From assembly GCA_013239625.1 (NCBI GenBank), contig MU053156.1, forward strand, positions 374,467 through 438,466: 64,000 nucleotides of DNA, read 5' to 3'. This DNA is from Lama guanicoe (Eukaryota). The position numbers and the translations under genes are program-made. Each line of letters starts with the position of its first letter. The first letter of the stretch is position 1. The notes beneath the pieces were generated by a model. The model was given only the letters and a program-made list of their open reading frames with translations. It was not told the origin of the DNA and searched no databases. Below, one piece after another: positions 1,620-58,966 of this stretch.

Positions 1620-1639
1620 GACGACGGGCTCAGTGTGGT

Positions 1640-14103: not shown

Positions 14104-14329
14104 GTCTGAGAATAGCTTCTTTAAAACACTGCATCTCAGAAATAATTTGTTCGAATAGTTTTAAATACAAAAAGACAAGCATCTTTATGTAATCATACTG
14201 TCAAATTGTCACTTTTTTCTTATTTACAGAAAAAATAAACACGTGGCAGCAAGTGTGTTAGGTCAACTGGCTGACTGTCTTTATGTGTAAAACCAAACCA
14301 AACAAAAAACCCAACCGTCTGCATCTACC

Positions 14330-15430
14330 GGAGGTGAGTGGAAACCTAACGGGCTCTGGTTCCCGCTGCAGGAGCAGCGGGGAGAGCGGACTAACCCAGG
14401 CGGGCGCTGGCTGTGCTGTGATGAGGTCCCAGGCGCGTCTGCGGCTGCTCCGGGCTCCTGCTGAGAAGGGAACGACGGCAGCCTTGAGACCGCCGAGCAC
14501 ACCCCCAGCTGCTTGCCACACCGCCCGCCCTCCCTTTCCAGCTGCGGGTGCGGGGCGGCCCCGAGCGGAGCCCCGCGCTCCAGCCTCGCTCCGCCGCAGC
14601 CCTCGGGGGCCCACAGAGCCCCGCGCCCGCCCTTCCTCTCGCCTCTGCGTCCGCCGGTCGGAGCGGCGTCGGTCCGGGAGGTCTCTGGGCGGCGGCGGCG
14701 GCCGCTCGTCCGGCTCCACCGTGTCCGCGGGCGGAGGCTCCGGGGCTCCGCGGAGGACGTCCGAGCTGGAGCTCTTGGGGGAGCAGAGCGGTGAGTGCGG
14801 CGCCCCTCTCCTGGCCCCCGGCCGCGGCCGCCCGGCTGCGCCGCGCGTGCGGCCCCGCCGTCCGCGGAGCCTCCCTGCCGGCCTCGCGCCCGTGCTCCGC
14901 CCCACCCCCGGTCCTTGCCCGTGCTCGCCGCCCCGTCTCAGCCCCCGGGTCCTCCGGGCGCCCCCGGTGCGTCGGGCTGCTGTGACCCTTCCGTCCCCGA
15001 CGCCGCCCGCTCCCGTGGACCTGCCCTCCAGGTCCTCACCCCGCCCGGCCCAGCCTCCCGTCCATCCCTTTCCTCCCCGTCTCCGGCGTCTCCCGACCCC
15101 CGCGCCCTTCTTGGAGCCGCACCCTTGTTCCCGCTCCGCTTCCGGTGCGTCAGCTCTGCGGCGAGGCCACCGGGAAGCCCCACTCGGGGACCGGCCCCCT
15201 TTCGCCTGGCGCGGGGAGGGTGGGATCCAGGCGTCGCTTTCCCCTGAGGCTGGGCCCGGACAAGTGCGGGCCTTACGGAAGGCGGAAAGTGGGGTCCTGG
15301 GACATTGTCGGATGGTTTTCCCCTGGGTAGGGGCTTGCTCTGGGTTCCAGGGGATATATTTTCGGAGGTGACTGGAGGACGGAGCGGTCGGGGAGTGAGG
15401 GAGTGGCGGCGGCAGTGGCGATTTGTGGCC
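14330..15430 (+). promoter_or_regulatory. CpG island promoter of a duplicated RAB6A-type 5' end
   Basis: About 1.1 kb of very high GC and dense CpG with GC boxes (ggggcgg, ccgccc), between AT-rich flanks. Contains the RAB6-like exon 1 and its donor. Confidence 0.9.
14721..14790 (+). pseudogene. RAB6A: Degenerate RAB6A exon 1 coding part (unprocessed partial duplicate; start ATG->GTG)
   Basis: ccacc-GTG reads VSAGGGSGAPRRTSELELLGEQS, against remembered RAB6A MS(T/A)[20 protein letters not shown]. It is 70 nt long and ends in a phase-1 donor G|GTGAGT. The upstream UTR gggaggtctctgggc resembles RAB6A. I found no RAB6 exon 2 (VGKTSLITRFMYD) in the window. Confidence 0.85.
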
Positions 15431-22480: not shown

Positions 22481-24641
22481 GAGAGGCTTTGGACGTACTC
22501 GAGAACCACCATGTGAAGGCTCTTTAGAGTAGTGTAGCTCATCCTGGATGTGACTCCACCTGTGACCCGGAGCACCTTCCTTTACCTTTCCAAGCCCCAG
22601 TCTCCCGGTGCATAAACTGATGTGTGTTAGAGCTCCTACCTGAAGGACTGCTGTGAGGTGAGATGACACTGTGTGAGCTGCTGAGTCTGGCTTCTGGTCT
22701 GTTGATGTTAATGTTAGGAAGTGGCATTTCCATTAAGGATAGAGACAGCAAAAACCGTGGCGCCAGCATCCTTACCCAGACTCTGACATGATGCTCAAGA
22801 TACAGGAAGAGACTGCATTGTAGAACAGGTAGGAGATGCTGGAAGAGGTACGGCAAGAAAACAAATCATGTGCAGCTGTCCTTTCACCCATGGGCTGCCT
22901 CAGGCAGGGCGAGGCGTGGAATAGAGCGCTGAGGGTTGTTAGGTACTCTGACCCACAAGGGCGTCAGTGAGGAAGAGTGTGCTTGGTGTAGGAAATGACA
23001 GGGTGACTGCTGGAGAGCCGTGGGACGTGCCTCCCGCAGGCCCGGAGCCCTGTGCTTTAACTTGAGAGCTGACTCCAGGTTGCTGAAAGAAGAAAACAAA
23101 TTGTTTTACTTTGGCGCCTAGGAGGGACATGTTTTTCAACATTGCAATTACTTTTGATAATAGTATGTATTTAAAATTTCAATCCTAACTTAAAATTAAC
23201 TTCCAGTTTTTGAGATAAAGTAAGGAGACCTTGATACATCTGACCCCCTTTATCCCCCACAGCTATCTCTGAGCAGTGCCAATGAGATTTATGAGCCTCG
23301 ATGTGCCCAGGGTGAGATTTTATTCTCAAATAGTACATGCTTACCACTTGAAACCATGGGAATGACTGTCTTCATTCAGACAAGCCCCTGTATAAGCCAA
23401 AGCAAGAAGTGAAATTTCGGATTGTTGCACTCTTCTCAGAGTTTAAGCCTTACAGAATGTCTTTAAATATTCTAGTAAGATAAGTACCAGACAGAAAGGA
23501 AGTAAGGAGTTGAAGCTGCCTTCCTGAAACTGTCTTGTAAGTTCTGCTCACGTTACTGGTACTGGGATGTCTTAGAATTCATATGGCTGAGCTTCCCTCC
23601 CAACATGGGGGTGTCTCTCCAGGAAGGTGAATGGTAGGGCACTGGGTTGGGAGCTCAGGATCTGGGTTCCAGTCCTGGCTTCATCATTGATTAATTCATT
23701 TGTGAAACATTTATTAAACTAATGTGTCTTAGGTCCAGAAGGGGCAGGGCAGTCAACAGAACACATTAAGTCTCTGCTCACATCGAGCTGTTTATTCCAG
23801 TGGGTAGAGACGATAAAGTTACATATATATACACAAAGGAATAGGTATGTACATGTGTGTGTTTGTGTGTGTGTGAGACAGAATGTGTGTGTTTACTGTT
23901 TTCTGTAGGGTTGTTAGAGAAGCTGTATTTGAACAGAGACCTCAAGGAACTAAAAGAATGAGCCTACACAAACAGGGAATAGCATGTGCAAAGGCCCTGA
24001 GGTGGGAGCTTGTTAGGTGCATTGGGGGAACCAGCTGGCAGTACACTGGAGCCCAGGAGGTGAGGGGACAGATATTAGGAGATAAGATCAGATAACGGGT
24101 AGGTTGGTTGGAGGAGCGGTTATACAAGATCTTCTTGTATATGTCCATGATATGGACTTTGGACTTTACTTTGAGTGAAATGAGAATTCACTGGAGAGTT
24201 CTGAGGAGAGAGGCATAAAGTGATTTGACTTAACATCTTAAAAGGATCACTGCTCTAAGAATGGATTGAGGCTCTGGAATCTGGAGAAGATTCTCTTGAA
24301 GCCTCAGTTTCATTTTTTGTAAAATGTATTATAGTAATAATGAAAATGCCTCCCAAAGGTTTTTGTGGGGTTTATGTGAGATGACTTATGTAAAGCATAT
24401 CGAACGGTGCCTGGCACATAGTACGTGCTCACTGAACACAAGCTGTGGTTAGAATAGGAACCCCCTCTGGCAGGGAGTCACTGGCCTCTGCTGCTTGAAC
24501 ACTCTGAGCTCTGGAGGCAGCATGGTTAGCAGACTGAGTTTTCCTGTGAGAACCAAGCTGAAGACAGCTGAGATCTGGCTGGATCTGGTTTTCTGTGCTT
24601 AATCCGAGGAGAATACTAGACATTTGATGATTACATGGGAA

Positions 24642-24724
24642 TGGAGTGACCGGTGCATCCCAGTTTGCTGAGACTCTCTGAGAACTGAAGTGTACCCCTC
24701 AGTCTGACACATTGGTTACCCTAA
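24642..24724. mobile_element. Short hAT (MER81-like) DNA transposon remnant
   Basis: Degenerate inverted termini gagtgacc...ggttacccta with internal cccagtttgc and cccctcagtc. Confidence 0.45.
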
Positions 24725-26800
24725 ATGTTCTGATGAATAACACAGAATGGAAAGTAAAGTCAGGCTTTTCAGTTCAGTGTATTCTCTTTCTTAGTTTCCT
24801 TGTTGTTAGAAGCTAAACAAACAAAAATCTGGCAAAAAACATGTATATGTATAACTTCAAGCCAAGATGTCTGTAGCAGAGAAGGCATTGGTTGGCATGC
24901 TCAGTGCGTATTTCTTGAATGGAACTGATGTTACTTCAGAGTTTGCAGCTTTGTGAATTTCTGCCCGTACTCCACTCTCTGCTGCTGTGTTGGAATGAAG
25001 TGGGTTGACACAGTGAGTAGTATTTCTCAATTCATGTAACTCTCAGAGCAGCATTTAGAGGTACCTTCATCCCATCCTCCATCATTTATCCACAAATACC
25101 GAGAACTGAGTCTATGCCAGAAATTTTATGTAAAATGCAGGATTTAGAATTAAATGTCTGCCTGTGTCTGGCTGTTTTCCTATTCAATCTGCCTCTTTCT
25201 GTCTTAGGTAAATAAAAGTCAGCACTGGATAAACTGCCTATTCTAGGCATTAACCTGAAACCCCTGCTGATTCTGGACAGCTGGTCTGTGCATTTTTATA
25301 ATTTTTCCTCCTTCTGCTCTAGCATCTGCCTTTGAAACTTTGGATTTGTAGATTCCTTGGGCTTCTCTCTCTGATTTTGCACGTAGCCTGTCACATTCGG
25401 CTTTCCTAGAGGTGCTCAGAGAGACCTTCTTTTTGCTGTTTTTGGTCCTGGGATCCTGCTGGCCTGGCCGACGTGTGGCTTGCTTGGACAGGGAAGGCAG
25501 TTTAGACTGAAATTGCAGCTGGAACGCAGTGTTTGGGACCAGTGAATGAGCATGCGTGTGGGTGCCTGAACGCCGCTCTCTGTATCTGGGTGGTGAGGCG
25601 GAGATGTGAACTCAGGTCCAGCCGACTCCTTGCTTGTAATTTGCAGGGGCCAGGTCAGACCACTGATGTGAATGCCTGTACACTGTGTCTGCACTCCTCC
25701 ACCTGAAAACAGTCTTTCGGGCCAGGGTTCGCCAGACTGTGATGTTTTCTACATTTTTCAGTGTGGGATAGCTGGTTTCTTGGAAAAACTTCCCAGAGAA
25801 AAGTGAGCCTTTAGTGTAATGAAAGCTCCTGACTTGGACAGTTACACTTGCCAGCACAATACCACCTGCAGGCTAGTGTGAAGTGCATCTTAGAACTACG
25901 GGAGACCAAATTTGGGGGACCCATGTTGCCCAGCCAAGAATGACTGGAGGATGTAGGTAAAATATTCACCATCAAAGCATATTCAGGCATGTTCAGTGTT
26001 TTATTGAAGGATCATTGGATATTATTCATTTCGCATGCCCTGATAACTGACCTCGGGAAGCAAAGGATCTTCAGAGGCCTTTCTATGGTGGAGTAAACCT
26101 CTGCCCTAGTTCTGGCTTCCTCTGGCCTGTCTATCCTTACACTGTGTAAACAAGTGCCTTCAACACCGTGATGGCACTTGGCATGCTGGCTTCTACCCTC
26201 ACCTCCCTTCCCGAAGAAGGTTATTGCTGTTGGTACAGGTGAATGACCTTGTGGGAGCTGGTGCTATTGGCTTGAGGTCTGCCCTGTGACTGTGCTCTGA
26301 CCCTTTGGCCTGGAGCAGTGGTGGCAAACCCAGAACCTCATCCCTGGCCAGGTGAGAGGCCTCCTGTTAAAGTGATTTGATGTCTCTAATTTTAGGGGCT
26401 AGACACACACCTGTGCATCATCCAGGACTCCCGGCAGTGGCAGAAATACTTACGCCCTCCAGCCAGGGATTTCATTGCTTGAGACATTTGGCACAGGCAG
26501 CGGGCGCTGTGCTGTGCAGAAGGGATTGATGGAGAGCCACAGCCATCCAGATATGACTCAGAGAGCATAGGAGACCACTCTTCCAGTGTCTCCAGCCACA
26601 TGGCTATTCCAGCTGTGATGGGCATGTTTCACATCGTACTTGGCTGTCCTGTGTGCATCCCAGCAGGGGGTGGCCACACGCAGTTGCAGGGCTCTGCTGT
26701 GATGCCACCGTGCGTTGCATGTTCAAATCCCGATGTGCTCTAAAGACATTCTCTGTGTGCTCCTTGTTGGTGATGTGCCCAGGTCCAGGACAGGCTTGGG

Positions 26801-27489
26801 ACATAAGACGGATCGTCTCATTCACTCCCAGCCCTCCAGATCCTCCAGGCCATCACACTTTGGTTCCAATTTCCTTTGCTTGTGGGACTGTGGGAGAAAT
26901 GTGCACCTTCTCGAAAATAATACATCCGTGAACTAGGAACGTTGCTTTCCCTATATTTTAAACAATACTGGGAATTAATATTTTTATTTTTGTCAGTGTG
27001 ACATGAGAAAAACGGGCTTCATTGTTTTATTTGCATTCCCTTAAGTATTAGCGTGTATTTATTAGCTCTTTGTCTTCATCTGCGTTTGATCCTTTGACTC
27101 CGTTAACCCTCCCACGCATCACGCCGTGGCAGGCACAAGAGAGCACATAAGACGGATCGTCTCATTCACTCCCAGCCCTCCAGATCCTCCAGGCCATCAC
27201 ACTTTTGGTTCCAATTTCCTTTGCTTGTGGGACTGTGGGAGAAATGTGCACCTTCTCGAAAATAATACATCCGTGAACTAGGAACGTTGCTTTCCCTATA
27301 TTTTAAACAATACTGGGAATTAATATTTTTATTTTTGTCAGTGTGACATGAGAAAAACGGGCTTCATTGTTTTATTTGCATTCCCTTAAGTATTAGCGTG
27401 TATTTATTAGCTCTTTGTCTTCATCTGCGTTTGATCCTTTGACTCCGTTAACCCTCCCACGCATCACGCCGTGGCAGGCACAAGAGAGC
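26801..27489. repeat. Head-to-tail tandem duplication, 344/345-bp unit
   Basis: 26801-27144 repeated at 27145-27489. The only difference I saw is one extra T in a T-run. Confidence 0.95.
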
Positions 27490-29120
27490 CAGGCCTGGTG
27501 ACAGTGCTTGCCTGCCCCCGGGCTTGGCGAGGACAGTGACCTGCTTACTCCTGACCTGTTTGTGGTCCTTGGTTTTAACAATTTGTTCCTGGCTCCCTGG
27601 ACCACTTCCTGCTCAGTTCTCAGCATTGTACTTAACGCTGATTCACATTCTCCCTCGCTCGGGGAGAGAGGTTTCTTATGGCTTCTAATAACCAGGCCAA
27701 CCTACTACCTCTAGTCAGAGGGGAAGAACAAGGGAAAATATTTGATCCCGGCTGCCAGTTCATAGTCTAGGGAACAAAGAAACACCAAAAGCAAAAAAAT
27801 AACAATGACATAAACACCAAAAAAACCCCCCCAAAAAAACAAAAAACAAAAAAGGAACCCAGAAAACAAGTGCCTTAAACAATAATAGATGTCAAGAGTG
27901 GTAAACTCTAGGTGAACTGGGGCTCTCCTGCCCGGTGCAGGCATGTCCAGAAGGCAAGAAGCTGGACAAGGATGAGCTGGCCTTCCATGCAGCAGTTGCC
28001 AAGGCCAAGAGGGCCCTGGGGGCAAATTGCAAACAAATCTATGTTTGGGGGAATATGTGCCTAAAAATGTAGGTGGGGTCAGCTTCCTAAGCCTTTTAAG
28101 CTACGCCGAGAAGTGTGGATCTCATCCTGTAGACAAAAGTCACCGTTACCTGCTGGTCTAATATAATGATCGTAGCTAGTGTTCCCTCACTGCTTGTTAC
28201 ATACCAGGAACTGTGCCAAGCATTTCAGTCACTTAGCCTCAGTCTCAGGTCGGTGTTTCGGATAGATGACACAGTCAGGAGAATATGGATTAAGGGGCAA
28301 AACTGGAGGAAGGAGAGTAGTTGCAATAGTTAGAACAGAGGGTATGGTGGCTGATTGTGAGGGTGGAAAGAAAGAGACAGACTTGAGAGAAATTAAAGAG
28401 GCAGAGTTGACAGGGTCTGGGATGACTACCAGACTGGCTTGGATGAATATTGCATGAAGCTTTCGTGGTCTGGGAGAGCATAAGAAGACTGAAGTGTTTC
28501 GCATGCACCCACTTGATTAAACACCCCTGTGGCACACTTTTGTTGAGTGAAAAGACATGTGGGTATGAATCCTGTATTCCACCATTTACTGGAGCTGTGG
28601 TATTGGACCATGGCTATCATTTACAGCTGAGGGCTTACGTAACCTTTCTAGGCATCAGTTTTCTCAACCACAACGTGAGGATAATCGTAGCCCAAGGGAG
28701 GATCGGAATGACTGAATGACGTGTGAGTGGTAATGATGAGGCAGAGTGCTGGACACATCGTGGGCCTTTACCGCACAGGGCCTGTTATCCCCACAGTGGA
28801 ATTTTCTCTCAACACCACCACCACCACCAACAACACGTCTGGTGATGTACATGCTGTAGTGTTTCATGTAGAAGGAAATAATGTTGCCAAGAATTAAAAA
28901 GTAGAGCCGAGTAAAGGTGTTCCCGGGAAACTCTGAGAAAAGAAGAAATTTTGATTTGTTGTCTTTAGTCATGTGGAGCTGACATTTTCCAAAATCACCT
29001 GTGTCCCACATTTTGGATGTGCCTTGCCTGGGCTTACTGCACAGCCTCATGCATAACCACTTAGGATCCACATGTATGCGGGCCAGCTTTATCTAGTTAA
29101 ACGTGTGGTTTTCATTGTAG

Positions 29121-29240
29121 GACCCTGAGTCAAATTTGATCCAACAGTCAGAACAAAGTGATCTTGGAATCATTTCCAAAACTTTCCAGTTATCTTCCCA
29201 TCCAATACTTGGTGACTGGTCCATTCAAGCTCAAGTAAAT
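29121..29240 (+). pseudogene. CD109: Isolated CD109 exon copy (alpha-2-macroglobulin family, N-terminal MG region)
   Basis: ttcattgtag|...|gtgagt encloses 120 nt reading DPESNLIQQSEQSDLGIISKTFQLSSHPILGDWSIQAQVN, against remembered human CD109 DPKSNLIQQWLSQQSDLGVISKTFQLSSHPILGDWSIQVQVN. Two codons are missing in frame. No other CD109 exon seen. Confidence 0.88.
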
Positions 29241-29776
29241 GTGAGTATAAATATATTTTCTGGGGGGAATGTTAATATGATTTAAATAGGTCGGGTGGGG
29301 GAAATATCTCCAAAGTCGTTTATTCAGTGAACAGAAAGACATTAATCTGAGCATCTAGACAATTCAAGTGGTTTATTTTTAATTTACTATTGCTATCAAT
29401 GGGTTAGCCTTTATTATAACATATGTGAGGTTTAATAGTCTTTTTATGTAATATAACATTTGAAGATTAAAACACTTCGCATTTTAGTATGAAACTGATT
29501 AAATGATGTTTATGGTACTTATTGCATACATTGAGTATTTTAAAACAGTAATAAATACGTAGCTATTATATGGCAAATTTTATGTCCCAGAATGATGATT
29601 TTTGATGAACAGTTGGGCTAACCTACTTTATCTTTACTTTAAAAACTCCAGTGACCTTAAACGGCCACATCAATCTCTGTTCCCTAGTCTTTCCTTCTCA
29701 GCTCCTTCACCATTTCCTTTGTTTGCTGCCAACTCCCCTAGCTCTGAGATCTAGCAAGGCAGGGGCACAAAAACGC

Positions 29777-30007
29777 CCCATCCATCCATCCACCCATTCA
29801 TTCACCCATTCACCCATCTATCTATCCATCCACCCACGCACCCATCCATCCACCCACCCATCCATCCAACCCACTCATTCACCCATCCATCCATCCACCT
29901 ACCCACCCATCCACCCAACCCACTCATTCATTCACCCATCTATCCACCCACTCACCCATCCATCATCCATCCATTCACCCACCCATCCATCCACCCTCCA
30001 TCCATCA
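29777..30007. repeat. (CCAT/CCAC)n compound microsatellite
   Basis: About 230 bp of ccatccatccacccattca-type repeats. Confidence 0.95.
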
Positions 30008-33000
30008 AGTATGTGTTGAGGACTTACAGTGCCATGACAGATACAAGGAGGCTAAACATGTGATCTCTGTCTTCAGAGATGTGGGAAGATGACTAATGTG
30101 ACAAAGATTAAGTTAAGCAAGGGTAACAGAAAAACATGAGGTTGTGCAATAGCAGAGGAATTGTGAGGTGCTGAATCCGTGAGGCTCATGAGGTTCCTCC
30201 AAGACTCAGGCCAGCTCGGGATAAAGAGGATGTGCTGTAAGCATGAGGGCCTGTGCTTTGGGGGCCAGAGGCTGTCCTTGTGGCCAGCTCCATTCCCCTA
30301 TCTCTTGTCCAACCTCTAAGGTGTTCTCTAGTCGCAGTCTAGACTGAGCACATTGGTTCAGCTGAATAACCTCCATCCTCAGAGTGCTGCAAGGAGCTCT
30401 GCACGGGTGTCTGGCCCCCCATGGATGGGTCACTGGGTCAGGTGTCCATGGTTGGTCCATTCAGAGTCCACCTCAGCTCCATGACCAGGCAGGACAGTCT
30501 CTCAGGCCCTGAGGGTGGCAGCCTTAGAGGGATTAATTTGTTCAGTGAGTGATACACAGACTATGTACCAGAGGAGAGAGGACAATAGTGGGGAAAGGCT
30601 GGAAGATGTGAGATTGTAGGTTGAAAGATTTATAGGATTTCTCATGTAGTAAGTTTTGGATTTGACCCATCATATTGCTTTAGTAGGAAAAAAGGAAGAT
30701 AAATGCTCTTAATGAAATTTGGGTGCTTGCAAAATTAAAAATCATTCACAAAAGCTGGTCCTTGCTCACCTCCTTGGTCTTGTTAAATGCCGCCCTTACC
30801 CTCGACCTCTGTGCTTTAGGCACAAATTATTCCGTTAGTTTCTTTTTTTTTTTTCCACTAGTTTTTTAAACCCACTCATCTGTCTGATCCCAGAGCCTTC
30901 CCCCGTGCTGTTCCCTCTGCCTGGAATGTTGTTTGTCTGCTTGCTGTCCTCCTTCAGGCGTTGTCCGAGGTGGCCCAGCCCCACAGGCATCTCCCCCGCC
31001 TTCTGTGCTTCTCTTGGTCCGTGCCTGTCACTGTTAGTTGACAGGGCCTGATAGTCTGTGTGAGGCCTGTTCTCCCTGTGTCTTTGGGACCTAGTAGCCC
31101 AGGACTCTGCACACATGTACACGTCAGTATGTAGTAAATGAGTGTATGAAAGCTATATAATCGTCACTTGTCTTGAACTAAACATGATGTCCCCTTTTCC
31201 ACATTCTGTAAATGTCTTTATCCTTTGTGAAGACAGGCACATCGGTCAGGAACTTACTAGTGGTGATGTCATGTTTTTTCCTTCTAGCTTTACTGAGATA
31301 TAATTGACAAAATTGTACGACATTTAAAGTGTGCAATGTGATGATTTAATACACATGTGCATTGTGAAAGGGTTTCTTCCAGGGGATATAATGTTAAGGC
31401 ACACAACGAAGGGAAAATAAGCTTCTTTGTTTAAAAAAAAAAAAAAGGAGTCCTTCAGTGGCCATCAGGGGTCAGTATAGTCCAAGAAATGAGGGGCCTG
31501 GACCCAGCCCTGAGCTCTGGTTTTTTCGTCTTTCCTTGATTCCTGCACAGCATTCAAGAATGATACACACACACACACACACAAATAAATAATATATGTG
31601 TATGTATGTATATATATAAAATTACACTTCTCTTTTAGCAACTAATAATGACTATGGAGGAAGTATATTAATTATTTAAGTAGTCACCATTATAGCCCAT
31701 ATTTTAATTTCCCCAAGGCAGTGACAGTATAAATCTTAGGAAGGGGAAATATTTATTTTCAGGAGAGTGTTTTGAAATCCCAGTTTGTCTCTAGAAAAAA
31801 TATGGAATGATCCTAGTATTACTACTGAAGGACAATGTATTAAAAAAAAAATACAGAACATACCAGAGCTTTGTTTTGTGGTTACAGTGCAGATAATCAG
31901 ACTGGCATTTTTTCATTCCCCATCCACTAGATCGGGAGAAGACTCCTTTAGGTAAAACACACTTGATTGTCCCCTTGGTATTTCTGTAACTGTAACTGTT
32001 TATAGAATAAGAGCAAATGAAATCTTTTAATATACTGTTAACCTTTCTGGGTTACTTACATTGCTTTTGAATTTCAAGTATTGTTTTTCACCTTTAGGCT
32101 TTTTAATGACAAGTAATTATTTTGATTGAGTACGATTTCTAGGTTTTTATTTTTCTTTTAATCCCCTCTATTTTGCAGTGTATGATGGTGGAGCAGATAA
32201 GACCTGCCCTAAGGGATGCAAGACACAGAACCTCCTAGCCCAGGGCAAGCCCCACCGCCAGCTGGGAGTCCTGCTACTGGACCCACTACAGCCACCCATC
32301 CCCTGGGGTAAGTCACCAGGCTGAAGGGGGGAAGGCAGGAGGCCCTTCAGAGAGTCCACCCAAGGTGGGAGGCCTCAGCAATAGAAGAAGGCAGGGAAGC
32401 AAGCCACACACAACCTGGCCTCATCCCCAAGTCCTGAAGGAGCATCCTCTGGAGATGCTGCTGGCCCCTGCCAGCCTGGACCAGTATGTTCTGCTCTGGG
32501 AAAGGTAGGGGGAGGCAACCATGATCTGCCAATACGGAGTGTCCTCCGGGAGGTCAGAGGCTGTGATTATTTGGTGGGCTCCCAACACCCCCAGGAGGCC
32601 GTCACTGCCTCTGAGTCAGTGAGGAGGTGTAAGCTCCCTCTTACTGCACATGGTACCCAATTCCCACTACACTTAGCACTTCAGGTAGACCTGGGCCCCA
32701 CCCCATGTCCCCAAGGCCTCTTGCATATAACCACAGCTTTTCCCCCAGGAGCATGATGTAGTTTTAAAAAAAAGCACTAGACCAGAAATTTGGGGACCTG
32801 AATTATTTTCCTATGCAGTAACAACCTCTGTGACTCTGAGTGGGCCACTTACCTCCACTTCCTCATCTATCATGATATCTGTGGTTGTGAATATCAAACA
32901 AGAAATGAAAGCAACCCCCAAACTAGGCAGCATTCCAGAAAGGTCTGAGACGGTTAAGGATACCATCAGTAGCCACTTTAAATCGTAGGAGATCAGGGGC

Positions 33001-34013
33001 AATGGACAGAGCACCCCAAACCTGAGAAAACCTAAGCCACTGCTATGAAACAGGTTACACAGGAAGGACCTGCTGGGGACAGAGGAAAACCTCAGCCTGG
33101 GCAGAAACCACGTCCAGGTTTTCAAACTTCCTGTCTGGAGTTTCTGTTTATGAGGCAGGCTGCTGTCGGCACCCGGGCAAGCCAGCTTGTGTGTTCCATG
33201 TTAGGTGTCACCGCCAGAGCACAGCAACAGGGCGGTTCCACGCAGGTCAGAGGTCTCTACTGCCCATGAAGTGATGACGCCTTTGGCAGAGATTGGCCAC
33301 ATGCCTCTCCTCCTGGTTTCATCTCCAAGTATGTTTTTACTTGGAGGGGAGGGAGCTTCTGGATGGTAGATTGATATATTTAAGTGACAGCCATTGTGCA
33401 GAATTTTTAGAAATCACGCATGTGGCCATTTTATCCACCTAAACTCGGCCTCAGAATATTCCTGCGAGAAGCAGAAGGGAAGAGAGGTGTTGGGTGGAAA
33501 GAGCTTTATGGCCCAGCAGGAACACAGGGTACCTGGAAGCAGAGGGCACCTGGCTGAAGACTGAAGGATCTCTGATGATCAGTCACAGTGGAGCTGAGAG
33601 CTGAGCTCACAGTCAGGAAGCCCCAGCTGGGCTGTACCCCCAGGCCAGCAGGGCACCCTCATCTTTCTAGGAGAAAGAAAGGAGAGGGTGAGAGGGTGAA
33701 GAAGAGGCCTGGTTTTTCCCAGTGTTAGGATCTCCATCCTGAATCCCAGAAAAGGAATCATGAAGGTGTTTTAAGAGCATTCTCCCCGCAGCCCAGAGAA
33801 GCCCCATGTCCTGCTCACTTCCTCTTCGCCCAGAGGCCCATCCTGCAAGGTCGGGTGAGAACACACTCTTACCAGCTCCTGCAGTGGTAGGAACCAACTG
33901 TATACAGAGCAAGACCTCATTTCTGCCAGGGACACGGGAAGAAAACTGGGCTGACTCAGTGCATCAGAATGTAAGTGGGTGGGAGGAGGGGGCTGGATGA
34001 ATACAGCTTCTGA

Positions 34014-34229
<216 letters not shown>

Positions 34230-34838
34230 TAATAGCTCCACTAGCTTTATTTACAAAATAATTTGGAATACAGGGTCTTTTTTAGCTACAGGTGTTAACA
34301 TTTATAGTATGTATACTGAATACAATCTCAGGCCCTGTTACCGTGGAAACAACTCCAAAGCCAAGGCTGGGGCTAGTGAAAGGTGGTGCCCACAGAAAGG
34401 GCACTCTGTCTCCCAGCCCCTCCTCTACCCTGGAAGGAACACCGCCCCATTAGGAAGTGCCTGGGAGTGGGTGGTAGACACCCTCATCTTTCTAGGAGAA
34501 AGAAAGGAGAGGGTGAGAGGGTGAAGAAGAGGCCTGGTTTTTCCCAGTGTTAGGATCTCCATCCTGAATCCCAGAAAAGGAATCATGAAGGTGTTTTAAG
34601 AGCATTCTCCCCGCAGCCCAGAGAAGCCCCATGTCCTGCTCACTTCCTCTTCGCCCAGAGGCCCATCCTGCAAGGTCGGGTGAGAACACACTCTTACCAG
34701 CTCCTGCAGTGGTAGGAACCAACTGTATACAGAGCAAGACCTCATTTCTGCCAGGGACACGGGAAGAAAACTGGGCTGACTCAGTGCATCAGAATGTAAG
34801 TGGGTGGGAGGAGGGGGCTGGATGAATACAGCTTCTGA

Positions 34839-35054
<216 letters not shown>

Positions 35055-35120
35055 TAATAGCTCCACTAGCTTTATTTACAAAATAATTTGGAATACAGGG
35101 TCTTTTTTAGCTACAGGTGT

Positions 35121-36477
35121 TAACATTTATAGTATGTATACTGAATACAATCTCAGGCCCTGTTACCATGGAAACAACTCCAAAGCCAAGGCCGGGGCTA
35201 GTGAAAGGTGGTGCCCACAGAAAGGGCACTCTGTCTCCCAGCCCCTCCTCTACCCTGGAAGGAACACCGCCCCATTAGGAAGTGCCTGGGAGTGGGTGGT
35301 AGGCTCAGAGCCCACGGAAGATGAAAGCCTGGGGCGAGTGAAGTGATGGTGGGGGCTGACTGCCTGCGGAGGCAGAGGTGCTACTGGGATGGGTGGAAGG
35401 AGGAAGGAGACCCAGTACCCAGCAGGGGAGCTGGGTGAGTGCACCTGGGCAGGGGAGGCAGTAGGCCACAGGCCCTGAGCACCCCAGAACCTCCAGTTCT
35501 ACGATCAGGGCAAATGAGGTCAGGTCTTGTTTGACAGCCAGCAAGGGTGTTCACTGGTGCTGGTGGCCACATGGCCTGCTATGTACACGTTGGGGTCTTC
35601 CACACTCAGCCTGGTGCAGCTTCTCAGTGGGGCTGTGGCTACATATGGGGAGCAGGTGATGGCGAAGCTGGTCCTTCTGCTTTTCCTCCGGGACATCCGT
35701 TGCCTCCCGCTGCTGCAGCCCTGCCAGGGATGCCCTCCGCTGACATTGTAGGTGCAGTTTTACATATTGGAGGTTCAGGCACTCCCTGTGTGAAAATATA
35801 ACATTTATAGTATGTATACTGAATACAATCTCAGGCCCTGTTACCATGGAAACAACTCCAAAGCCAAGGCCGGGGCTAGTGAAAGGTGGTGCCCACAGAA
35901 AGGGCACTCTGTCTCCCAGCCCCTCCTCTACCCTGGAAGGAACACCGCCCCATTAGGAAGTGCCTGGGAGTGGGTGGTAGGCTCAGAGCCCACGGAAGAT
36001 GAAAGCCTGGGGGGAGTGAAGTGATGGTGGGGGCTGACTGCCTGCGGAGGCAGAGGTGCTACTGGGATGGGTGGAAGGAGGAAGGAGACCCAGTACCCAG
36101 CAGGGGAGCTGGGTGAGTGCACCTGGGCAGGGGAGGCAGTAGGCCACAGGCCCTGAGCACCCCAGAACCTCCAGTTCTACGATCAGGGCAAATGAGGTCA
36201 GGTCTTGTTTGACAGCCAGCAAGGGTGTTCACTGGTGCTGGTGGCCACATGGCCTGCTATGTACACGTTGGGGTCTTCCACACTCAGCCTGGTGCAGCTT
36301 CTCAGTGGGGCTGTGGCTACATATGGGGAGCAGGTGATGGCGAAGCTGGTCCTTCTGCTTTTCCTCCGGGACATCCGTTGCCTCCCGCTGCTGCAGCCCT
36401 GCCAGGGATGCCCTCCGCTGACATTGTAGGTGCAGTTTTACATATTGGAGGTTCAGGCACTCCCTGTGTGAAAATAT
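35121..36477. repeat. Tandem duplication, 678-bp period, overlapping the 825-bp duplication
   Basis: 35121-35798 repeated from 35799. ORFs repeat with a 678 offset. One substitution seen. Confidence 0.95.
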
Positions 36478-38039: not shown

Positions 38040-38555
38040 TATTATTTTTATTGCAGTATAGTTGATTTAGTGTTGTGTTTATTTCTGGGGTACAGCAAAG
38101 TGGTTCAGTTTTATATATGTATATATATATACACACACACACACGCACGCATAAACACATACTTTTTCATAATCTTTTCCATTTTGGTTTATTACAGGAT
38201 ATTGAGTATATTTCCCTATACTACACAGTAGGACTTTGTTCTTTATCTATTTTATATATAGTAGTTGGTATCTGCGAATCCCAAAGTGGTCATTTTTCCC
38301 CCCACCACCCCCTTTCCCCTTTGGTAACCATCAGTTGGTTTTCAATGTCTATGAGTCTGCTTCTGTTTTGTAAATAAGTTAATTTGTATCATATTTTAGA
38401 GTCCATATATTAAGTGGTATCACATGGGATTTATCTTTCTCTTTCTGATTTACCTCATTCAGTGTGATCATCTCTAGGTCCATTCATGTTGCTGCAGATG
38501 GCATTATTTCATTCTTTTTTAATGACTGAATAGTATTCTATTATATATAAGTATA
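38040..38555 (-). mobile_element. LINE-1 3' end fragment
   Basis: cccctttggtaaccatcagttgg...tctctaggtccattcatgttgctgcagatggcattatttcattctttt. Confidence 0.85.
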
Positions 38556-39810: not shown

Positions 39811-39917
39811 GATGACCTTACACCACTGTTACTTGCTGTAAGTGAAAACAAAGAGCAAATGGCAGAATTTCTAGTAAAGAAAGAGGCAAATATACATGCA
39901 GTTGATAAGTGGAAAAG
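39811..39917 (+). pseudogene. ANKRD26 exon-4-like ankyrin exon (107 nt, open)
   Basis: tttacag|DDLTPLLLAVSENKEQMAEFLVKKEANIHAVDKWK-ag|gtcagt. Confidence 0.92.
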
Positions 39918-40320: not shown

Positions 40321-41110
40321 ATATAAAGGATGGCAGGCCAGAAATACCGTGCTATTTAAGCGTGACAGTGTCAGTTTATGGTACTGATTCTACTGATGAT
40401 GTCATTTGTTTTTCTCAGGCTCATAGAGTTTGGTTAGGACTGTGGTCCTTGTAAATAGCCATTCACTTGGAGGAATCAAATTTTGAAACATAGCATTCAT
40501 TTTTTTCACGTTTGTTAAATACAAAGGAGGGGAAATGGTTCTTACGCATTAATTGCCTACCGGTAGTATACTCAGTATTCACTCTAGGGTAGTCGCCAGG
40601 TGTGTTCCCAAAGGAATGCTTTTGAAAAAAGCATCAGTCTTATACTTTTAGTATTCTCTATTTTTCTATTGCTGATTTAAAATTTTTTTTTCTTTCAGAG
40701 TGAATAGGAGTTCTGAAAGATGATGCTTTAAGCAGGTAGGATTTTATGCATTTTAAAAAATTATATGTTGACTAAGGGAAAACAGAGAAAAGAAACTTAA
40801 CATTTGTTGACTGTTCTGCTCTGGGTTAGACACTGTGTTACGTGCTTCACATCCGTTACTTCACACAGTCATCACAACAGCTGTGCAAAGCAGCTGTGCT
40901 GTTACAGCTGACTTTTCATTCATTAGGCAACTCTGGTTCAGGGGGGTTGAGTGACTGACCCGTGGTTCCATAGGTCACAGGTAGCTGACCTGTGACTTGA
41001 CCATCAGACAGCCTGGCTCCCAAAACTGCTTTCTTGTCCCTCAGCAGAGATTTTTTGTTTGTTTAAAGAAATGAAATGACTCTTTTTTTGTTGTGTATTT
41101 TTGTTCTAAG

Positions 41111-41181
41111 GGCTTCCCAGCAAACCTGATCTTGATGACTCGTGGCCTTCATCAGATGAAGACTCAGATTTTGAGTCCAAG
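41111..41181 (+). pseudogene. ANKRD26-like exon
   Basis: LPSKPDLDDSWPSSDEDSDFESK|gtaaag, against remembered LSGKPGVDDSWPTSDDEDLNFDTK. Confidence 0.85.
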
Positions 41182-42939
41182 GTAAAGTGTTCTCGTGAAA
41201 TTAATTCTGCTCTGAATTTAGTTTTGTGTAGTATTTACTCTTAAAATTGAGCAGTGGTCTACCTATCACTGTTCTATGTTTGTGTTGGAAGTTTGGTCAG
41301 AGTGAACTGTTTTATAAAAACAAGACTAACTGAATTTTCTTTTTACTTTGCTAAATACTGAAGACAGGGTCTGAGGACAAAGTGGAGTAGAAAACATACA
41401 GTGACAGGAAAATTGTATTGGGAAAAGTTGTCCCACGATGGAGGAAGCATGAAATGTTGCCAAGGAGACAGATTCTTACTCTGCCTTTTAAACCATCCTG
41501 GCGTGACTTTTGTAACACTCCTGCCTAAATGAAATCTTCAGTAGATACAGTTACTTACTGGAATAATCATGGAGTCTTCCTGGGGCTTTTCAGTTCCAAA
41601 ACTATATTCCATGTGTTGTCTAATTTTTTTTCTTGGACACTTTTTTTTTTGGTACCATAGAGTTGTTAGGAGAGAGGTTTTTTTCCCCTCTGTATCTGTC
41701 TTTGATTCTGCATGAAGACTAAAATAATAGCTGGAATTGTAGAAATTTAGAAATTAAAGTTATTTATCCAAATCCATATTATAAAGGGATTCCTCTGTGT
41801 TTTCAAAATCATTCCATTAAGAGTATATTCAAAACCCTTGCATCTAATTGGATAATACATGTTTCCTCTAAAATGATAACCAGTTCTCAAAGAAGACTCT
41901 TAAGAACCATGTGATAAAACCTACAACTTTAGAATTTTTTTGTACTATAGTTTAAAAAAATATGTCCTCAGAGTCCTTATGTCACATCTAGAATTTCACA
42001 TTTCAGACATTTTGTAGTATAGTTACTTAAAAATTCATTTTGTAGGCCCTGCATCAGTATAAACTGCTGGAGATTAGGAAACATAATTGTGCATTTCCTG
42101 GAGCACCTAGGATAAGGCCTTAAATGTACAAAACATTTTAGTATTTTTTGAATGTGAATACATGAGCAGACAAATGGAATTCTGTATCGTGTTACAGGTA
42201 ATATAATATGCACACTCTATCATAATGAAATCTATTTGAATTCTAAAAATACGACTTAAGTTTCTATTCCCTTTGTTTAGGATGTGTAAGTTCAGTTGCT
42301 GTGATGAGGAAGTACATCATAAGTAGCAAGGAAATAAATAAGTATGTGGTAAGTAGGAAAGAGGTTGCAGTATATCCACTAAGTGTGAGCTTAAAATTTT
42401 AGATTAAAATTGTCGAACCTTCTCCTTAGCCCCATTTCATGTTCCGTTAAATGTGTCTTTTCAAGCCATATATTCTTCTTAGAATTCTCATTACCAGTTC
42501 TTCAGGTGGAAAGTTGGTGTGTTAGGTAGGAACTTTTTAAAAATCTATTTCTCTCTCTCTCGTAGTAATTTATAGCATTCAGGTAGTGATAGATGACCAT
42601 GTTCGGTTGAATGACTTACAGTGACAAAATGAAACTCTTTATTATAGTAGTATTTATAAACAAATAGCTGTAGAGTAATACAAATCAGTATCAATAGGGA
42701 TATATACTAGGAACAAAAGCCTCTGTTTTTTACATATATATGTCATATTTTGGTATTTTTGTAAAATTTGCTGAAGAACAATACATATACTTATCTATAT
42801 AATTTGTATATATCTTAATATAGAATAAAAACATAAAACAGGCTTTCGTTCATAGTATATCCCTAACAATGCTGATGTATCACATCTATTATGTATGTGT
42901 GAAATATATGTATTTCTCCACATACCTTACTACTCTTAT

Positions 42940-43165
42940 TTTTTAAATTTTATTTTATTGAGTTATAGTCAGTTTACAATGTTGTGTCAAATTCCAGTGT
43001 AGAGCACAATTTTTCAGTTATACATGAACATACACATGTTCATTGTCACATTTTCTTTTTCTCTGTGAGCCTACCACAAGATCTTGTATATATCTCCCTG
43101 TGCTATACAGTATAATCTTGTTTATCTATTCAGCATATGCCTGTCAATACCTACAAATTTTAAAC
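42940..43165 (-). mobile_element. LINE-1 extreme 3' end
   Basis: ttattgagttatagtcagtttacaatg... same family as 4883-6047. Confidence 0.85.
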
Positions 43166-43948
43166 TCAATTTTTTTTTAATTGAGGTATATTCTTATATT
43201 TTCTTTTTTTTTTCATGCCTTAAGTTTGTACTGGACTAGTCATGTCTCATTTTTTTTCTTTTCTTCCTCTTCCTGCCCCACTTATTTTACTTTATTTTTT
43301 AATGATTTACTCCTAAGCTAATTTTTTCTGTTTAGTATGTGTGTGGCTTTCATTCATGAGTCGTTGCCCCTCAGATTTTCTCTTGTTTTTATTCCTCTTC
43401 CTTTGAAGGAGCTGAATTTAAACAATTATTTGTCTTTAGGTTTTTGACCCCTGGAATAGAAGTAGCTTACACTGTTTGCTGTTCTAACCCATCCAAATAA
43501 GATCCTGCTAAAAACTATAAGCTCTCATATTCCCCCCGTGAAAGATAATTCATGCATATGTAAATCATGCAAACACATTTCAAAATACAACAATCAATTT
43601 AAATTTCTTAATGTTAGTTTTTCAATGGTATTCTTAGCTTCCAAGGGTAAGTTTTTGTTCTAGATCATTTTGCTCTAGAAAGTCATCTAATGGCTACCAC
43701 AGTATTTGTGTAATAAGCAATGAGGGGTAAGGAAAGTAACACCTGGGAGCTCCTGATGTCACTCCTCATAATCCTCACCCCAGGAGAAGATGCAGGTCGA
43801 CAAAGGTCAGAACCGGGATTGGAGCCCACGTCTGAATGACTCCGAAGCCTGTGCTCTTTGTGTTCAATCATATAGTAATGGGGAATGTTCGAATTATTTT
43901 ATTTAGTTTCGTACTTGTTATTCTTAAAGCTGTAATTTTCTTCTCTAG

Positions 43949-44243
43949 AATGTCCTGAAACCAAGCTTCACAAAGCTAAGTTATGGCTCTCAGCAGCCCA
44001 GGGAAAACTAAGTTGTTTGAAGTTGTTCTTGTGCTGTTCCCTGATTTGAAATTACAGATATTTTCACCTACCCTATCTTGTTCTCACAATAGTAGAAGGA
44101 AAACACGACATTATGAGGCCAGGAATTAGAACCTTTCTTGAGGACAGTTCTGATGGTGAAAATGAAGATGTGGTTGGAACCTTTCCCAAACTGTCCCATC
44201 AAAGTCCCAGGCTTTTCTTACCCTGCCTGCCCATCACTGGAGC
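43949..44243 (+). pseudogene. Two adjacent ANKRD26-like exons; the second is frameshifted and cut by a SINE
   Basis: NVLKPSFTKLSYGSQQPREN from 43949. EGKHDIMRPGIRTFLEDSSDGENEDVVGTFPKLS/IKVPGFSYPACPS from 44096. Confidence 0.75.
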
Positions 44244-44798: not shown

Positions 44799-44859
44799 GT
44801 ATGATGTCAGCATTGAAATTAGGAAAAAAGAAGATACAGAATCTCCTTGGGATTCTGAG
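44799..44859 (+). pseudogene. ANKRD26-like exon with frameshift
   Basis: MMSALKLG/EDTESPWDSE|gtactg, against remembered VMSALGLGQEEDIESPWDSE. Confidence 0.85.
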
Positions 44860-44871
44860 GTACTGTCTAGT

Positions 44872-44903
<32 letters not shown>
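44872..44903. repeat. (ATC)n microsatellite
   Basis: About ten ATC units. Confidence 0.95.
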
Positions 44904-47383
44904 TCTAAAATGTAAGCATTGAGTGATGTTCAAACAAATGGAGGGATGCTTTGACTTTACTGCCTCACCTTTGCATTTGCCCATCAGTTTTCTTCTTATA
45001 TTTTTAATCTACAGTTAATAAAATCATTCTGCGCTAAATGTCATAGTACTGCATAGTGCACTTCTGTTAATTCTCCAGGCTCACCTAATAAAACCGGTGT
45101 ATATAACGCAAAACACCAAGACTTAGAAGTCCCAGCAGATTGGTTTGGGCTCTGAAGTTAAGTTTTTTAAAAACTAAAGAATTACTCTTGGTCAGCCTGT
45201 GACCAAACATGTGTTTCTTTGGTATAAATGGATGTGTAAAACTCCTAGTGAGATTCAGAGAGAAACAGGTTGAATTAAAAAAAAAAAAGTTCTTTAGCTT
45301 TGGTTTGGTTTGGTTTGGGTTTTTTTTTTTATACCACTTTGACCTTGAAAAGACTGCCTGCAACTTGAAGGTATTTGGATTGTCAAGTAGATGTGCAGAA
45401 GACATTTTAGGGGAAGCAAAAGTGTGTTTGAGAGTAATAAATATGTGGGGTTTTAATACCAACAATTTGGCTTAGTGATGTTTTAATGAGAACTCATTTT
45501 GGATAGTTCAAATAATGTGCATTGAGTACCTTTACGGTGGCCGTGCTCGAAGTGATGTAGGTACAGAGCAGTGATGACCTGTTCTCAGGTGACGGCTGTG
45601 GAAAGAGGCTAGAAGAGCCTGAGCTCTGGAATCCAGGTAGCTGCTACCTAGTGGCACAGCACTGTATTTGAAGTCAACAGATGTGGCGTCATCCTGGTTC
45701 TGTGATGTGCTGTGGGGTCTTGGAAAAACTTGTTTGACCTGTTTGATTGTCAGTGACCTCATTGGTAAAAATGGTACTGACACCTACCTCTCAGGTATGT
45801 GTAGTGAACAGATGTAACAAATGTGAAAACATTGTTGTCTGTAAATGGTGCTATAAAATCTAAGACAGGATGATCACTGTGGCAATGAGTGTTGAGGACA
45901 AAGTGTTGAGGACACTTTTAATACCTGAAGGACAATAAAATGGCAGAGTTAAGCAAGGGAAAGTCAGAGCAGGCATGTGGGTTTCTCATTTGGGGTGTGT
46001 TACGTTTCAGGAGACTATTATTGGAGATCTCTGATAGGTATAGAGTGCTTTGGTACTTGAGTTCGTGTTGAGATTTGACATGTTTTGACCTTAAAGAAAT
46101 TCTTGTTCCCGAACACCAGCTGTGTGCCAGGCAGTTAGACACTGAGTGTACCAGTTGAGGGGTTAGGCTGTAGCAGTAGGAGCAGAAGAACAAGGGAACA
46201 GGAATCCTCTCTCAATCACAGTAAGTCCTTCACATAATGAACATGGAGAACGTTAGGTTGGACCACAGTGGGGGACTTTGTAGTTAGGATGGGGTGGAGT
46301 GAGTGCAGAATTTACGTAGTCAGCACAGCTGTGAGTGTGACCAAATCTGCCAAGTGAAGGAAGGGAAGGAGCCCGTCATGTCATGTAAAGGCCCAGGGGA
46401 GCGACGTTCTGGACAGAGAGCACAGAGGGTCCCACCTGCTCATTCCTGTTCCCCAGCACCTTACAGTGGCCAGGAAGCAGCAAGTGGGTAACCGTCCTTA
46501 TGACCATTTTTACTATTGTGTGTGTAGGAAAAAAATGTGCATCATTAAGGGTGTGGCACATGCACATGGTTAAGAAATAAATTTTCTTACTCTTCCCTTA
46601 AGTTAAAGCTTCCTGTACTTTTTCAGAGAGTTGCATAACTATATTTAAAGTTTTTTGCTGTTATTAAAATACCTGTTTTTCTTATTAGTTTGCTAATTTA
46701 TTCAAGTATTTTTCCTACCAATAAATGTTTTATCAAATAATAGATTGTGCTAAGCCCTTGTTAACTGAAATGAAGCAGCTTCTACAATGTTCTGTTAATA
46801 CTAAGTGTGACAGACTCCAAGGTTGCTTTTCATGCCAAATATGTTATTTTAATACTAAAACCACATCTGTCCTTAGAAATATTTTTAATTTGTAGCAAGT
46901 ATACTTACTAAAGAATTTGTTTTAAAAAATATTTATTTAATCTTTTTATTGAAGTGTAGTCGATTTATAATGTTAGTTTCAGGTGTACAGCAAAGCATTC
47001 CAGTTATGCATAGAAAACTATTTTTTAAAATGCTTTCCATTGTGGGGTAATGCAAAATGGAGTTAGGCATTTTGAAGTTAATTCTCTGTTGAAATATGAA
47101 TATAAGTCAATATTTTGTCTCTGAAAATATTTACCTTGGCTTTCCATGTTCCATTTACTGAGTGAAAAGACAGGTGAAGCTAAAAGATAGACTTGATCTA
47201 GAGAATGTATGTGAAGTTTTCTATTTAAATGTTTGGGTTTCCAAGATACGCTTCTCTTATTTTTAAAGTCTAATTGCTTTTAAAGGAGGAAACAAAGAAA
47301 AATTAGGTAAGAAATGCAGGTATTTTCTTAGAAAGGGGTTAGGAAATCTTTATGCAACTCATTATTAATATTGATTTTAACAG

Positions 47384-47477
47384 AGTATCTCTGAGAGTCT
47401 ACCACAGAAGTATGTTGATCATTTTTCTGGGGCTGCAGATCAAACAGGAAAAAATATATTAAATGGACAAACAGAAG
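47384..47477 (+). pseudogene. ANKRD26-like exon (94 nt, open)
   Basis: ttaacag|SISESLPQKYVDHFSGAADQTGKNILNGQTE-g|gtaaga. Confidence 0.85.
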
Positions 47478-58608: not shown

Positions 58609-58966
58609 GAGGGTGCTTTATTTTAATAAGCCTGCCCAGCTCAAACACAATGGAGATGGAGCTAGAACCTGAATATTCTTTCTGCCTTTTGTAACTTTAT
58701 TCATTTTCCCATGTTCTATACATTGCATCTTTGAATAAATTTTTTAATATTCGTGACAATTTTCAGGAAACCATTTGTAAAATACTCATTTTGAAACAGC
58801 CTAGATCTCAGTTAGGAACCTGTTGTTAGTTTATGCAAAGCTTGCCTTTTGTTAAGCCATTAAATAAGTAAATTTGTATGTAAAACATATGATAGATAGT
58901 ATGAACGCATAGTCGTCTAGGCTCATGGGGAGTAGTTTTCTTTTTCTATTTCTAAATAAAACACCC

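What the first reader, a model, noticed from the sequence alone, without database searches (positions are those of the whole stretch)
29060..29750. Orphan CD109 exon with intact splice sites inside the mosaic
A single symmetrical (phase 0-0) 120-nt exon of CD109 is still open, with AG/GT sites and AT-rich intron-like flank. No neighbouring CD109 exons are visible, which points to a small DNA-level duplication from an unrelated locus. It is co-oriented with the RAB6 and ANKRD26 pieces, so it could act as a cassette exon. It would be out of frame directly after the phase-1 RAB6 exon but in frame with phase-0 ankyrin exon 39811.
Basis: partly seen in the sequence, partly recalled or inferred. Interest (0 to 1): 0.7.

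Follow-up and report, generated by a model that had tools for sequence, protein, structure and literature searches.

The report
Decayed CD109 duplicate in camelid mosaic
The exon is a real but damaged copy of part of the CD109 gene, one of two such exons in an old, decaying patchwork of duplicated gene pieces in a camel-family genome, and it is most likely an ordinary pseudogene leftover rather than a working building block.

Summary
The 120-nt exon (29121-29240) is real: AG/GT sites, open frame, best match CD109. It is not an orphan. The preceding CD109 exon lies 5.6 kb upstream (23263-23479), frameshifted and with its donor changed to AT, so at least 6 kb of the gene was copied. The exon itself has lost 6 nt, including a tryptophan present in 119 of 119 homologues. 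A Camelus ferus gene model (EPY75175.1) strings together pieces collinear with this window plus a further CD109 exon, so the mosaic is shared with camels and old. The copy lacks 5 of 7 camelid-specific CD109 changes. Frame: the exon fits ankyrin exon 39811, but 0 of 128 paths from the upstream CpG-island exon read through it, and it has no ATG. Staying open by chance has probability about 0.13-0.19. Splicing in RNA stays untested. Verdict: an unprocessed pseudogene fragment in an ANKRD26-like duplication mosaic; coding cassette use is unlikely.

The parts
14380..15400 (+). CpG island (75% GC, CpG o/e 0.86) holding the likely promoter and first exon of the mosaic
   Evidence: pieces 14313-14423 and 15054-15145 match the Camelus ferus model EPY75175.1
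14721..14790 (+).
   Evidence: for structure; no match
23263..23479 (+). Decayed CD109 exon encoding residues 93-169 (exon 4 by recalled human numbering): acceptor intact, 14 nt lost (9 + 4 + 1), frameshifted, donor GT changed to AT; possible cryptic donor at 23475
23480..29120 (+). 5641-nt intron between the two CD109 exons (5296 nt without one copy of the 345-nt tandem duplication); CD109 origin inferred from order, strand and phase
   Evidence: parental DNA not available
29121..29240 (+). The finding: CD109 exon for residues 170-211 (exon 5 by recalled numbering), second half of the MG2 domain; 120 nt, phase 0-0, AG/GT intact, W179-L180 deleted, K172E, V188I, V189I, V208A
29241..29640 (+). 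AT-rich 3' intronic flank, probably the start of the next CD109 intron; right breakpoint not located
   Evidence: GC 26-30%; origin inferred
34072..34226 (+). ANKRD26-like ankyrin exon with a phase-1 start; in frame with the CpG-island exon when the CD109 exons are skipped; near-identical second copy at 34897-35051
39811..39917 (+). ANKRD26-like ankyrin exon, phase 0 to 2, in frame after the CD109 exon
40699..44233 (+). Further ANKRD26-like exon remnants (40699/40701-40735, 41111-41181, 43949-44012, about 44110-44233) with frame breaks, a stop or a lost donor; one expected exon not found
44799..47477 (+). Two ANKRD26-like exons (44799-44859, 47384-47477) still open with AG/GT

Best explanation
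The exon is a passenger in an old DNA-level duplication. A block from the 5' half of CD109 (at least the exons for residues 26-82, 93-169 and 170-211, with introns) was copied, before the camel and llama lineages split, next to a copied CpG-island promoter and a copied ANKRD26-like gene. Since then it has decayed without selection on protein: the upstream exon is frameshifted and lost its donor, the earlier exon is missing from this window, and this exon lost an invariant tryptophan. It still has AG/GT and an open frame by chance. It yields no protein. If the CpG island still drives RNA through the region, the exon may be spliced in at some level, but only as untranslated or stop-carrying sequence. 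Shown: identity, second exon, lesions, frames, shared mosaic in a wild-camel model. Inferred: one continuous duplicated block, its age, neutral decay, lack of protein.
For: Two CD109 exons in gene order and no others in 64 kb (next best tblastn E 0.015). Lesions in both. Amino-acid changes in the copy 19 of 111 codons against 5 of 119 in the working alpaca gene from the same outgroup consensus, Fisher p 0.002; tree branch 0.19 against 0.028 for the camelid stem. W179 kept in 119 of 119 aligned homologues. The exon covers only positions 43-80 of the 96-position MG2 profile. 0 of 128 exon paths from the CpG-island exon read through it; no ATG inside. Chance survival 0.13-0.19. No protein among 127 hits (120 listed) carries this exon in another context. 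Camelus ferus model with collinear pieces and a further CD109 exon. ANKRD26 copies are reported at breakpoint mosaics in mammals (PMC4141111, passages).
Against: This exon is less changed than its neighbour (4 of 40 against 15 of 71 codons), its only indel keeps the frame, and both splice sites survive; at the neighbour's rate, 4 or fewer changes has probability 0.06-0.10 (Fisher p 0.19). Taken alone its 4 of 40 does not differ from the working gene's 1 of 42 (p 0.20). Two of the four changes are V to I, seen in other mammals (28 and 8 of 119 rows). Open downstream paths exist (8 of 64, longest 127 codons). RNA use and synonymous rates could not be measured. The protein search was word-limited and is weak evidence of absence.
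Confidence: 0.8

Rival explanations
1. Non-coding or poison cassette. The CpG-island promoter drives a transcript whose open route skips CD109 (first exon to 34072 to 39811 to 44799 to 47384, 162 codons from GTG, or from ATG 34083). Including the CD109 exon breaks the GTG frame at 29126 and could tune the amount of RNA by decay, under selection.
For: Intact CpG island; intact AG and GTGAGT; skip route open (12 of 256 paths open, longest 162 codons); stop at 29126 on inclusion.
Against: No transcript evidence; the first exon has no ATG; no protein model holds its frame (0 of 2648 candidates scored E up to 10); several ANKRD26-like exons are broken. Inclusion alone would not show function.
Confidence: 0.1
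2. Coding cassette in a chimeric protein. Translation starts at ATG 23457 near the end of the broken upstream exon, uses a cryptic donor at 23475 and runs through this exon into ankyrin exon 39811 and on (133 codons open).
For: The path is open; the exon's indel keeps the frame and it is less changed than its neighbour; POTE-actin shows that ANKRD26 copies can form in-frame chimeras (PMC7073761, passages).
Against: Needs a cryptic donor, six upstream ATGs passed over, skipping of both 34 kb ankyrin exons and three more; gives half an MG2 sandwich without its invariant W plus one ankyrin repeat; no such protein among the hits.
Confidence: 0.04
3. The CD109 pieces are an assembly error or the true CD109 gene mis-joined to other loci.
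For: The window has four local duplications of 99.4-99.9% identity, which can be assembly artefacts.
Confidence: 0.03
4. The copy is older than camelids (for example shared with other hoofed mammals) and camelids merely kept it.
For: The tree places the copy with camelid CD109 at only 76/75 support; 5 of 7 camelid-specific states are missing.
Against: It shares S96 with camelids (N in 85 of 93 other rows) and the variable I150; the only chimeric model found is from a camel. This rival changes the date, not the pseudogene reading.
Confidence: 0.15

Closest known systems
CD109 (thioester-containing protein family; human 8s3o/9fx2, Vicugna XP_072822377.1, dromedary XP_064343013.1)
   Same: Source of both exons; 81-86% identity over the 42-residue exon, 73% and 52-57% over the two frames of the upstream exon; MG2 domain halves.
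   Different: Only 2 exons present, no signal peptide, thioester or anchor part; frameshift, dead donor and loss of W179-L180.
Camelus ferus hypothetical protein CB1_001774004 (EPY75175.1)
   Same: Gene model built from pieces collinear with window 14313-35742, 84-92% identical in the three best pieces, with a CD109 exon between the CpG island and the ankyrin exon.
   Different: Holds the CD109 exon for residues 26-82, absent here, and neither of the two exons found here; parts translate intronic DNA, so it looks like an unsupported prediction. Orthologue or paralogue is not known.
ANKRD26 copies at mammalian breakpoint and pericentromeric mosaics (PMC4141111); pseudogene-rich blocks in alpaca (PMC13751797)
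   Same: Fragments of unrelated genes side by side with an ANKRD26-like copy; decay after duplication.
   Different: The passages read do not name CD109 or RAB6; the alpaca blocks are described as absent or reduced in camel assemblies, whereas this mosaic has a camel counterpart.
POTE-actin chimeric genes of primates (PMC7073761)
   Same: ANKRD26-derived duplicate next to a piece of an unrelated gene.
   Different: POTE-actin is an expressed in-frame fusion made by retroposition; here the piece is intron-containing DNA, lies upstream, is damaged and has no in-frame entry.

Membership tests
Working CD109 gene | Full exon set (signal peptide, MG domains, thioester region, anchor) in order | tested here: not met
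   Full-length tblastn and exon profiles hit only 23263-23479 and 29121-29240; the two short exons (10 and 13 codons) are hard to exclude, best scores 26 of 50 and 27 of 70
Working CD109 gene | Invariant MG2 tryptophan 179 | tested here: not met
   Deleted in the window; W in 119 of 119 rows
Unprocessed (duplicated) pseudogene fragment | Parent's exon-intron structure kept | tested here: met
   Two consecutive exons, correct order and phase, 5.6 kb apart, with splice-site remnants
Unprocessed (duplicated) pseudogene fragment | Disabling lesions and relaxed constraint | tested here: met
   Frameshift, dead donor, 19 of 111 against 5 of 119 changes; the second exon alone is inconclusive
Unprocessed (duplicated) pseudogene fragment | Intact parent elsewhere in the genome | tested here: inconclusive
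   Intact CD109 in Vicugna pacos and three Camelus species; the window's own genome is not held
Segmental duplication in the strict sense (1 kb or more, 90% or more identity to parent; definition recalled) | DNA identity to the parental locus | not testable with these tools
   No parental DNA; protein changes imply about 9-11% divergence on the copy's branch alone, so probably under 90%
Cassette exon | Splice signals and length divisible by three | tested here: met
   site strength not scored
Cassette exon | In frame with an upstream coding exon | tested here: not met
   0 of 128 paths from the CpG-island exon; one contrived internal start
Cassette exon | Inclusion and skipping junctions in RNA | tested here: inconclusive
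POTE-type chimeric ANKRD26 gene | Expressed in-frame fusion protein | tested here: inconclusive
   No matching protein apart from one camel prediction; expression untested
RAB6A-derived first exon | Sequence match to RAB6A | tested here: inconclusive
   23- and 40-residue queries gave no hit; paper search empty; resemblance is recalled

The most novel reading that the evidence does not exclude
An old, camelid-wide chimeric gene built from three parents: a borrowed CpG-island promoter drives an ANKRD26-like transcript, and the CD109 exon has been kept on purpose as an alternative exon, either breaking the 162-codon skip route as a regulatory poison exon or joining half an MG2 domain to an ankyrin repeat in a 133-codon protein. 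Its lower change rate, frame-keeping deletion and intact splice sites would then be signs of selection over tens of millions of years.
Probability: 0.08. Interest if true: 0.6.

Novelty: new member of a known kind. Interest (0 to 1): 0.18.

Why it matters
As read here it is ordinary: one more decayed gene piece in an ANKRD26-type duplication mosaic. Its modest value is as a dated marker. The mosaic appears to predate the camel-llama split and differs between lineages in which CD109 exons remain, and the copy could catch mis-mapped CD109 reads or primers. It would matter more if RNA and cross-species conservation showed the exon kept under selection, since that would be a camelid parallel to POTE-type gene birth.

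Tried and rejected
Own genome: not held, so parent locus, breakpoints and copy number were not found. RNA runs (18 sampled words): 18 of 24 rows hold part of 29061-29300; three RNA runs of one study hold 0.28-0.33 and eleven further RNA or RNA-guess rows 0.17-0.22; none was laid, and the working CD109 gene of any mammal could give such shares, so they count neither for nor against expression. Other CD109 exons: profiles for residues 3-25, 26-82, 83-92, 212-224 and 225-253 gave no score above 0 bits in six frames (one search failed midway). RAB6 label: no support from PDB, protein database or papers. Tree had a mis-cut peccary row and was rebuilt without peccary, warthog and muntjac; neither tree fixes the copy's position. 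Earlier scan notes: nothing near, by words or among relatives; eight CD109 notes shown were other genomes and unrelated. PMC6598621 and PMC12874980 (passages) added nothing. Rejected: retroposed origin (intron and splice sites kept); single-exon duplication (second exon found); exon as the true gene (lesions, 81-83% identity to camelid CD109).

Full report
Observation. The window shows AG at 29119-29120, 120 nt of exon and GTGAGT from 29241. Frame 0 is open; the other frames hold 2 and 3 stops. The 40 residues match human CD109 in solved structures at E 7e-16, and the 120 listed of 127 database hits are CD109 proteins or unnamed proteins of the same domain make-up. The match is to residues 170-211 of the alpaca protein, with two residues missing. 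It covers positions 43-80 of the 96-position MG2 profile, below Pfam's cut-off. GC falls to 26-30% for about 300 nt after the exon but is 39-49% before it. Exon numbers 4 and 5 used below are recalled from the human gene.

It is not an orphan. tblastn with four CD109 proteins finds a second piece at 23263-23479, residues 93-169, split over two frames (E 4e-13 and 1e-9 for alpaca), confirmed against PDB and by a profile. It has a good acceptor, has lost 14 nt as 9 + 4 + 1, and its donor reads AT. It lies on the same strand, directly before the finding in protein order, 5641 nt away. Nothing else of CD109 was found: the next tblastn hit has E 0.015 and five other exon profiles score at most 0 bits, though two of those exons are too short to exclude firmly. 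The simplest reading is one copied block of at least 6 kb. The intron's origin and the breakpoints are inferred, because no genome was held.

The surroundings. Upstream is a CpG island (75% GC, o/e 0.86) with a 70-nt phase-1 exon end at 14721-14790 that begins GTG. It resembles RAB6A exon 1 by recall only; could not confirm this. Downstream are ankyrin exons at 34072-34226 (again at 34897-35051) and 39811-39917 (Pfam), 72% and about 51% identical to an Oryx ANKRD26-like protein, followed by further ANKRD26-like remnants to 47477, several with frame breaks, a stop or a lost donor.

The mosaic is old and shared with camels. The closest named hit of the first ankyrin exon is Camelus ferus EPY75175.1, 91% identical. 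That model matches the window in order at 14313-14423, 15054-15145, 32428-32505, 34086-34226 and 35536-35742. Between the CpG-island pieces and 32428 it carries a copy of the CD109 exon for residues 26-82, which this window lacks. So the copied block was once longer. The window is therefore from a camelid; the species was not determined, and 12% amino-acid difference from the camel model (17 of 142 positions in the three best pieces; the four weaker pieces were left out) suggests a South American species or a paralogue. At 7 sites where alpaca and dromedary CD109 share a residue unlike most other mammals, the copy has the non-camelid state at 5 (44 and 54 in the camel model; 117, 155, 176 here) and the camelid state at 2 (96, and the variable 150). 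A tree of 18 rows joins alpaca and dromedary without the copy (97/90) and groups the copy with them at only 76/75. The copy's own branch is about 9-11% at DNA level against about 3% per lineage since the camel model and this window parted, roughly three times the age of that split if the two are orthologues. The split is given as 11-25 million years (PMC13751797, passage). An early camelid-stem origin is the best guess; an older one is not excluded.

Decay. Against a consensus of 17 outgroup proteins the upstream exon has 15 changes of its own in 71 codons (17 listed, less one shared with camelids at 96 and one at 150; the last listed change is an alignment effect at the 1-nt gap but marks a real difference) and this exon 4 in 40, while the working alpaca gene has 5 in 119 (pooled Fisher p 0.002). 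The deleted W179 is present in 119 of 119 aligned homologues. Results against this reading: the exon is less changed than its neighbour (p 0.19; 4 or fewer changes has probability 0.06-0.10 at the neighbour's rate), does not differ on its own from the working gene (p 0.20), and its one indel keeps the frame. A simulation at the pooled rate gives 0.56 for no stop, 0.70 for four intact splice bases and 0.34-0.49 for no frameshift, together 0.13-0.19 (crude, with the present exon as template and indel rates from four events). With about a dozen copied exons in the window, several surviving by chance is expected, and three ANKRD26-like exons also do (39811, 44799, 47384). Synonymous rates could not be measured.

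Could it be a cassette? I tested all ordered subsets of nine candidate exons. From the CpG-island exon, 12 of 256 paths are open, none with the CD109 exon; 0 of 128 paths that include it read through it, stopping at 29126 or in the upstream remnant. The longest open path skips CD109 altogether (162 codons). Starting at the exon itself, 8 of 64 paths are open, the longest 127 codons, but the exon has no ATG. The only entry is ATG 23457 with a cryptic donor at 23475, behind six other ATGs, giving 133 codons. The product would be half a beta-sandwich without its invariant tryptophan plus one ankyrin repeat (inference). No protein with this exon in a foreign context appeared, a word-limited search.

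How it most likely works. It does not make protein. It is an unprocessed pseudogene fragment whose splice sites may still be recognised if the borrowed promoter is active, giving untranslated or decay-prone RNA. I put this at 0.80, a selected non-coding or poison role at 0.10, a coding chimera at 0.04 and an assembly error at 0.03.

Comparison with what is known. ANKRD26 copies are reported to gather at rearrangement breakpoints and centromeres, with expansion in primates and artiodactyls (PMC4141111, passages). POTE-actin is the known case where such a copy became an in-frame chimera (PMC7073761, passages). Pseudogene-rich blocks are described in alpaca, without mention of CD109, RAB6, ZMIZ1 or ankyrin in the main text (PMC13751797, passages). 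I found no paper on this mosaic: searches returned 0 papers; one search listed 6, one search listed 17 of 18 and one search listed 20 of 1,261, none on it by title, term counts and abstract start. Supplements were not read; the gene tables of PMC4141111 could list such copies. The library lacks most subscription papers.

Verdict. Observation partly confirmed, interpretation partly supported. New member of a known kind, interest 0.18. The most novel reading not excluded, an exon kept by selection in an old three-parent camelid gene, has probability about 0.08.

Noticed in passing
window 14721-14790 with 34072-34226, 39811-39917, 44799-44859, 47384-47477: The route that skips both CD109 exons is open for 162 codons from GTG (ATG at 34083); the 34072 exon starts at an acceptor inside the usual ankyrin exon, in the phase that fits the CpG-island exon. 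A better candidate for a chimeric gene than the CD109 exon.
   Followed up: partly
window 26801-27489, 33654-35303, 35121-36476, 61019-62000 against 62889-63871: Four local duplications of 345, 825, 678 and at least 980 nt at 99.3-99.9% identity; very recent events or assembly artefacts. One doubles the ankyrin exon.
   Followed up: partly
window about 53600-56500, minus strand: Intronless, broken ZMIZ1/ZMIZ2-type retrocopy (PF25527, E 3e-43).
   Followed up: partly
window 62230-62562, plus strand: Exon-like stretch ending in a GTAAGG donor, 60 open codons; no Pfam or PDB match; parent unknown.
   Followed up: partly
Camelus ferus EPY75175.1 (P0138), residues 149-205: Copy of the CD109 exon for residues 26-82 with non-camelid states at 44 and 54; absent from this window, so lineages or paralogues kept different CD109 exons.
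   Followed up: yes
P0187 and P0188 (XP_031311809.1, XP_031311807.1): Short dromedary 'CD109 antigen-like' models covering a later part of CD109; may be a split gene model or another partial copy.
   Followed up: no
window 16441-16507 and 17212-17278: 67-nt inverted repeat, 99% complementary, 704 nt apart.
   Followed up: no
window 29777-30006: Imperfect (CCAT)n array, 57 copies, 540 nt after the exon; may lie near the right end of the CD109 block.
   Followed up: no
window 1-1620, 4890-6050, 18240-19150, 38040-38500, 57920-58610: Related interspersed repeat copies, LINE-1-like 3' ends by recall, 65-90% alike.
   Followed up: no
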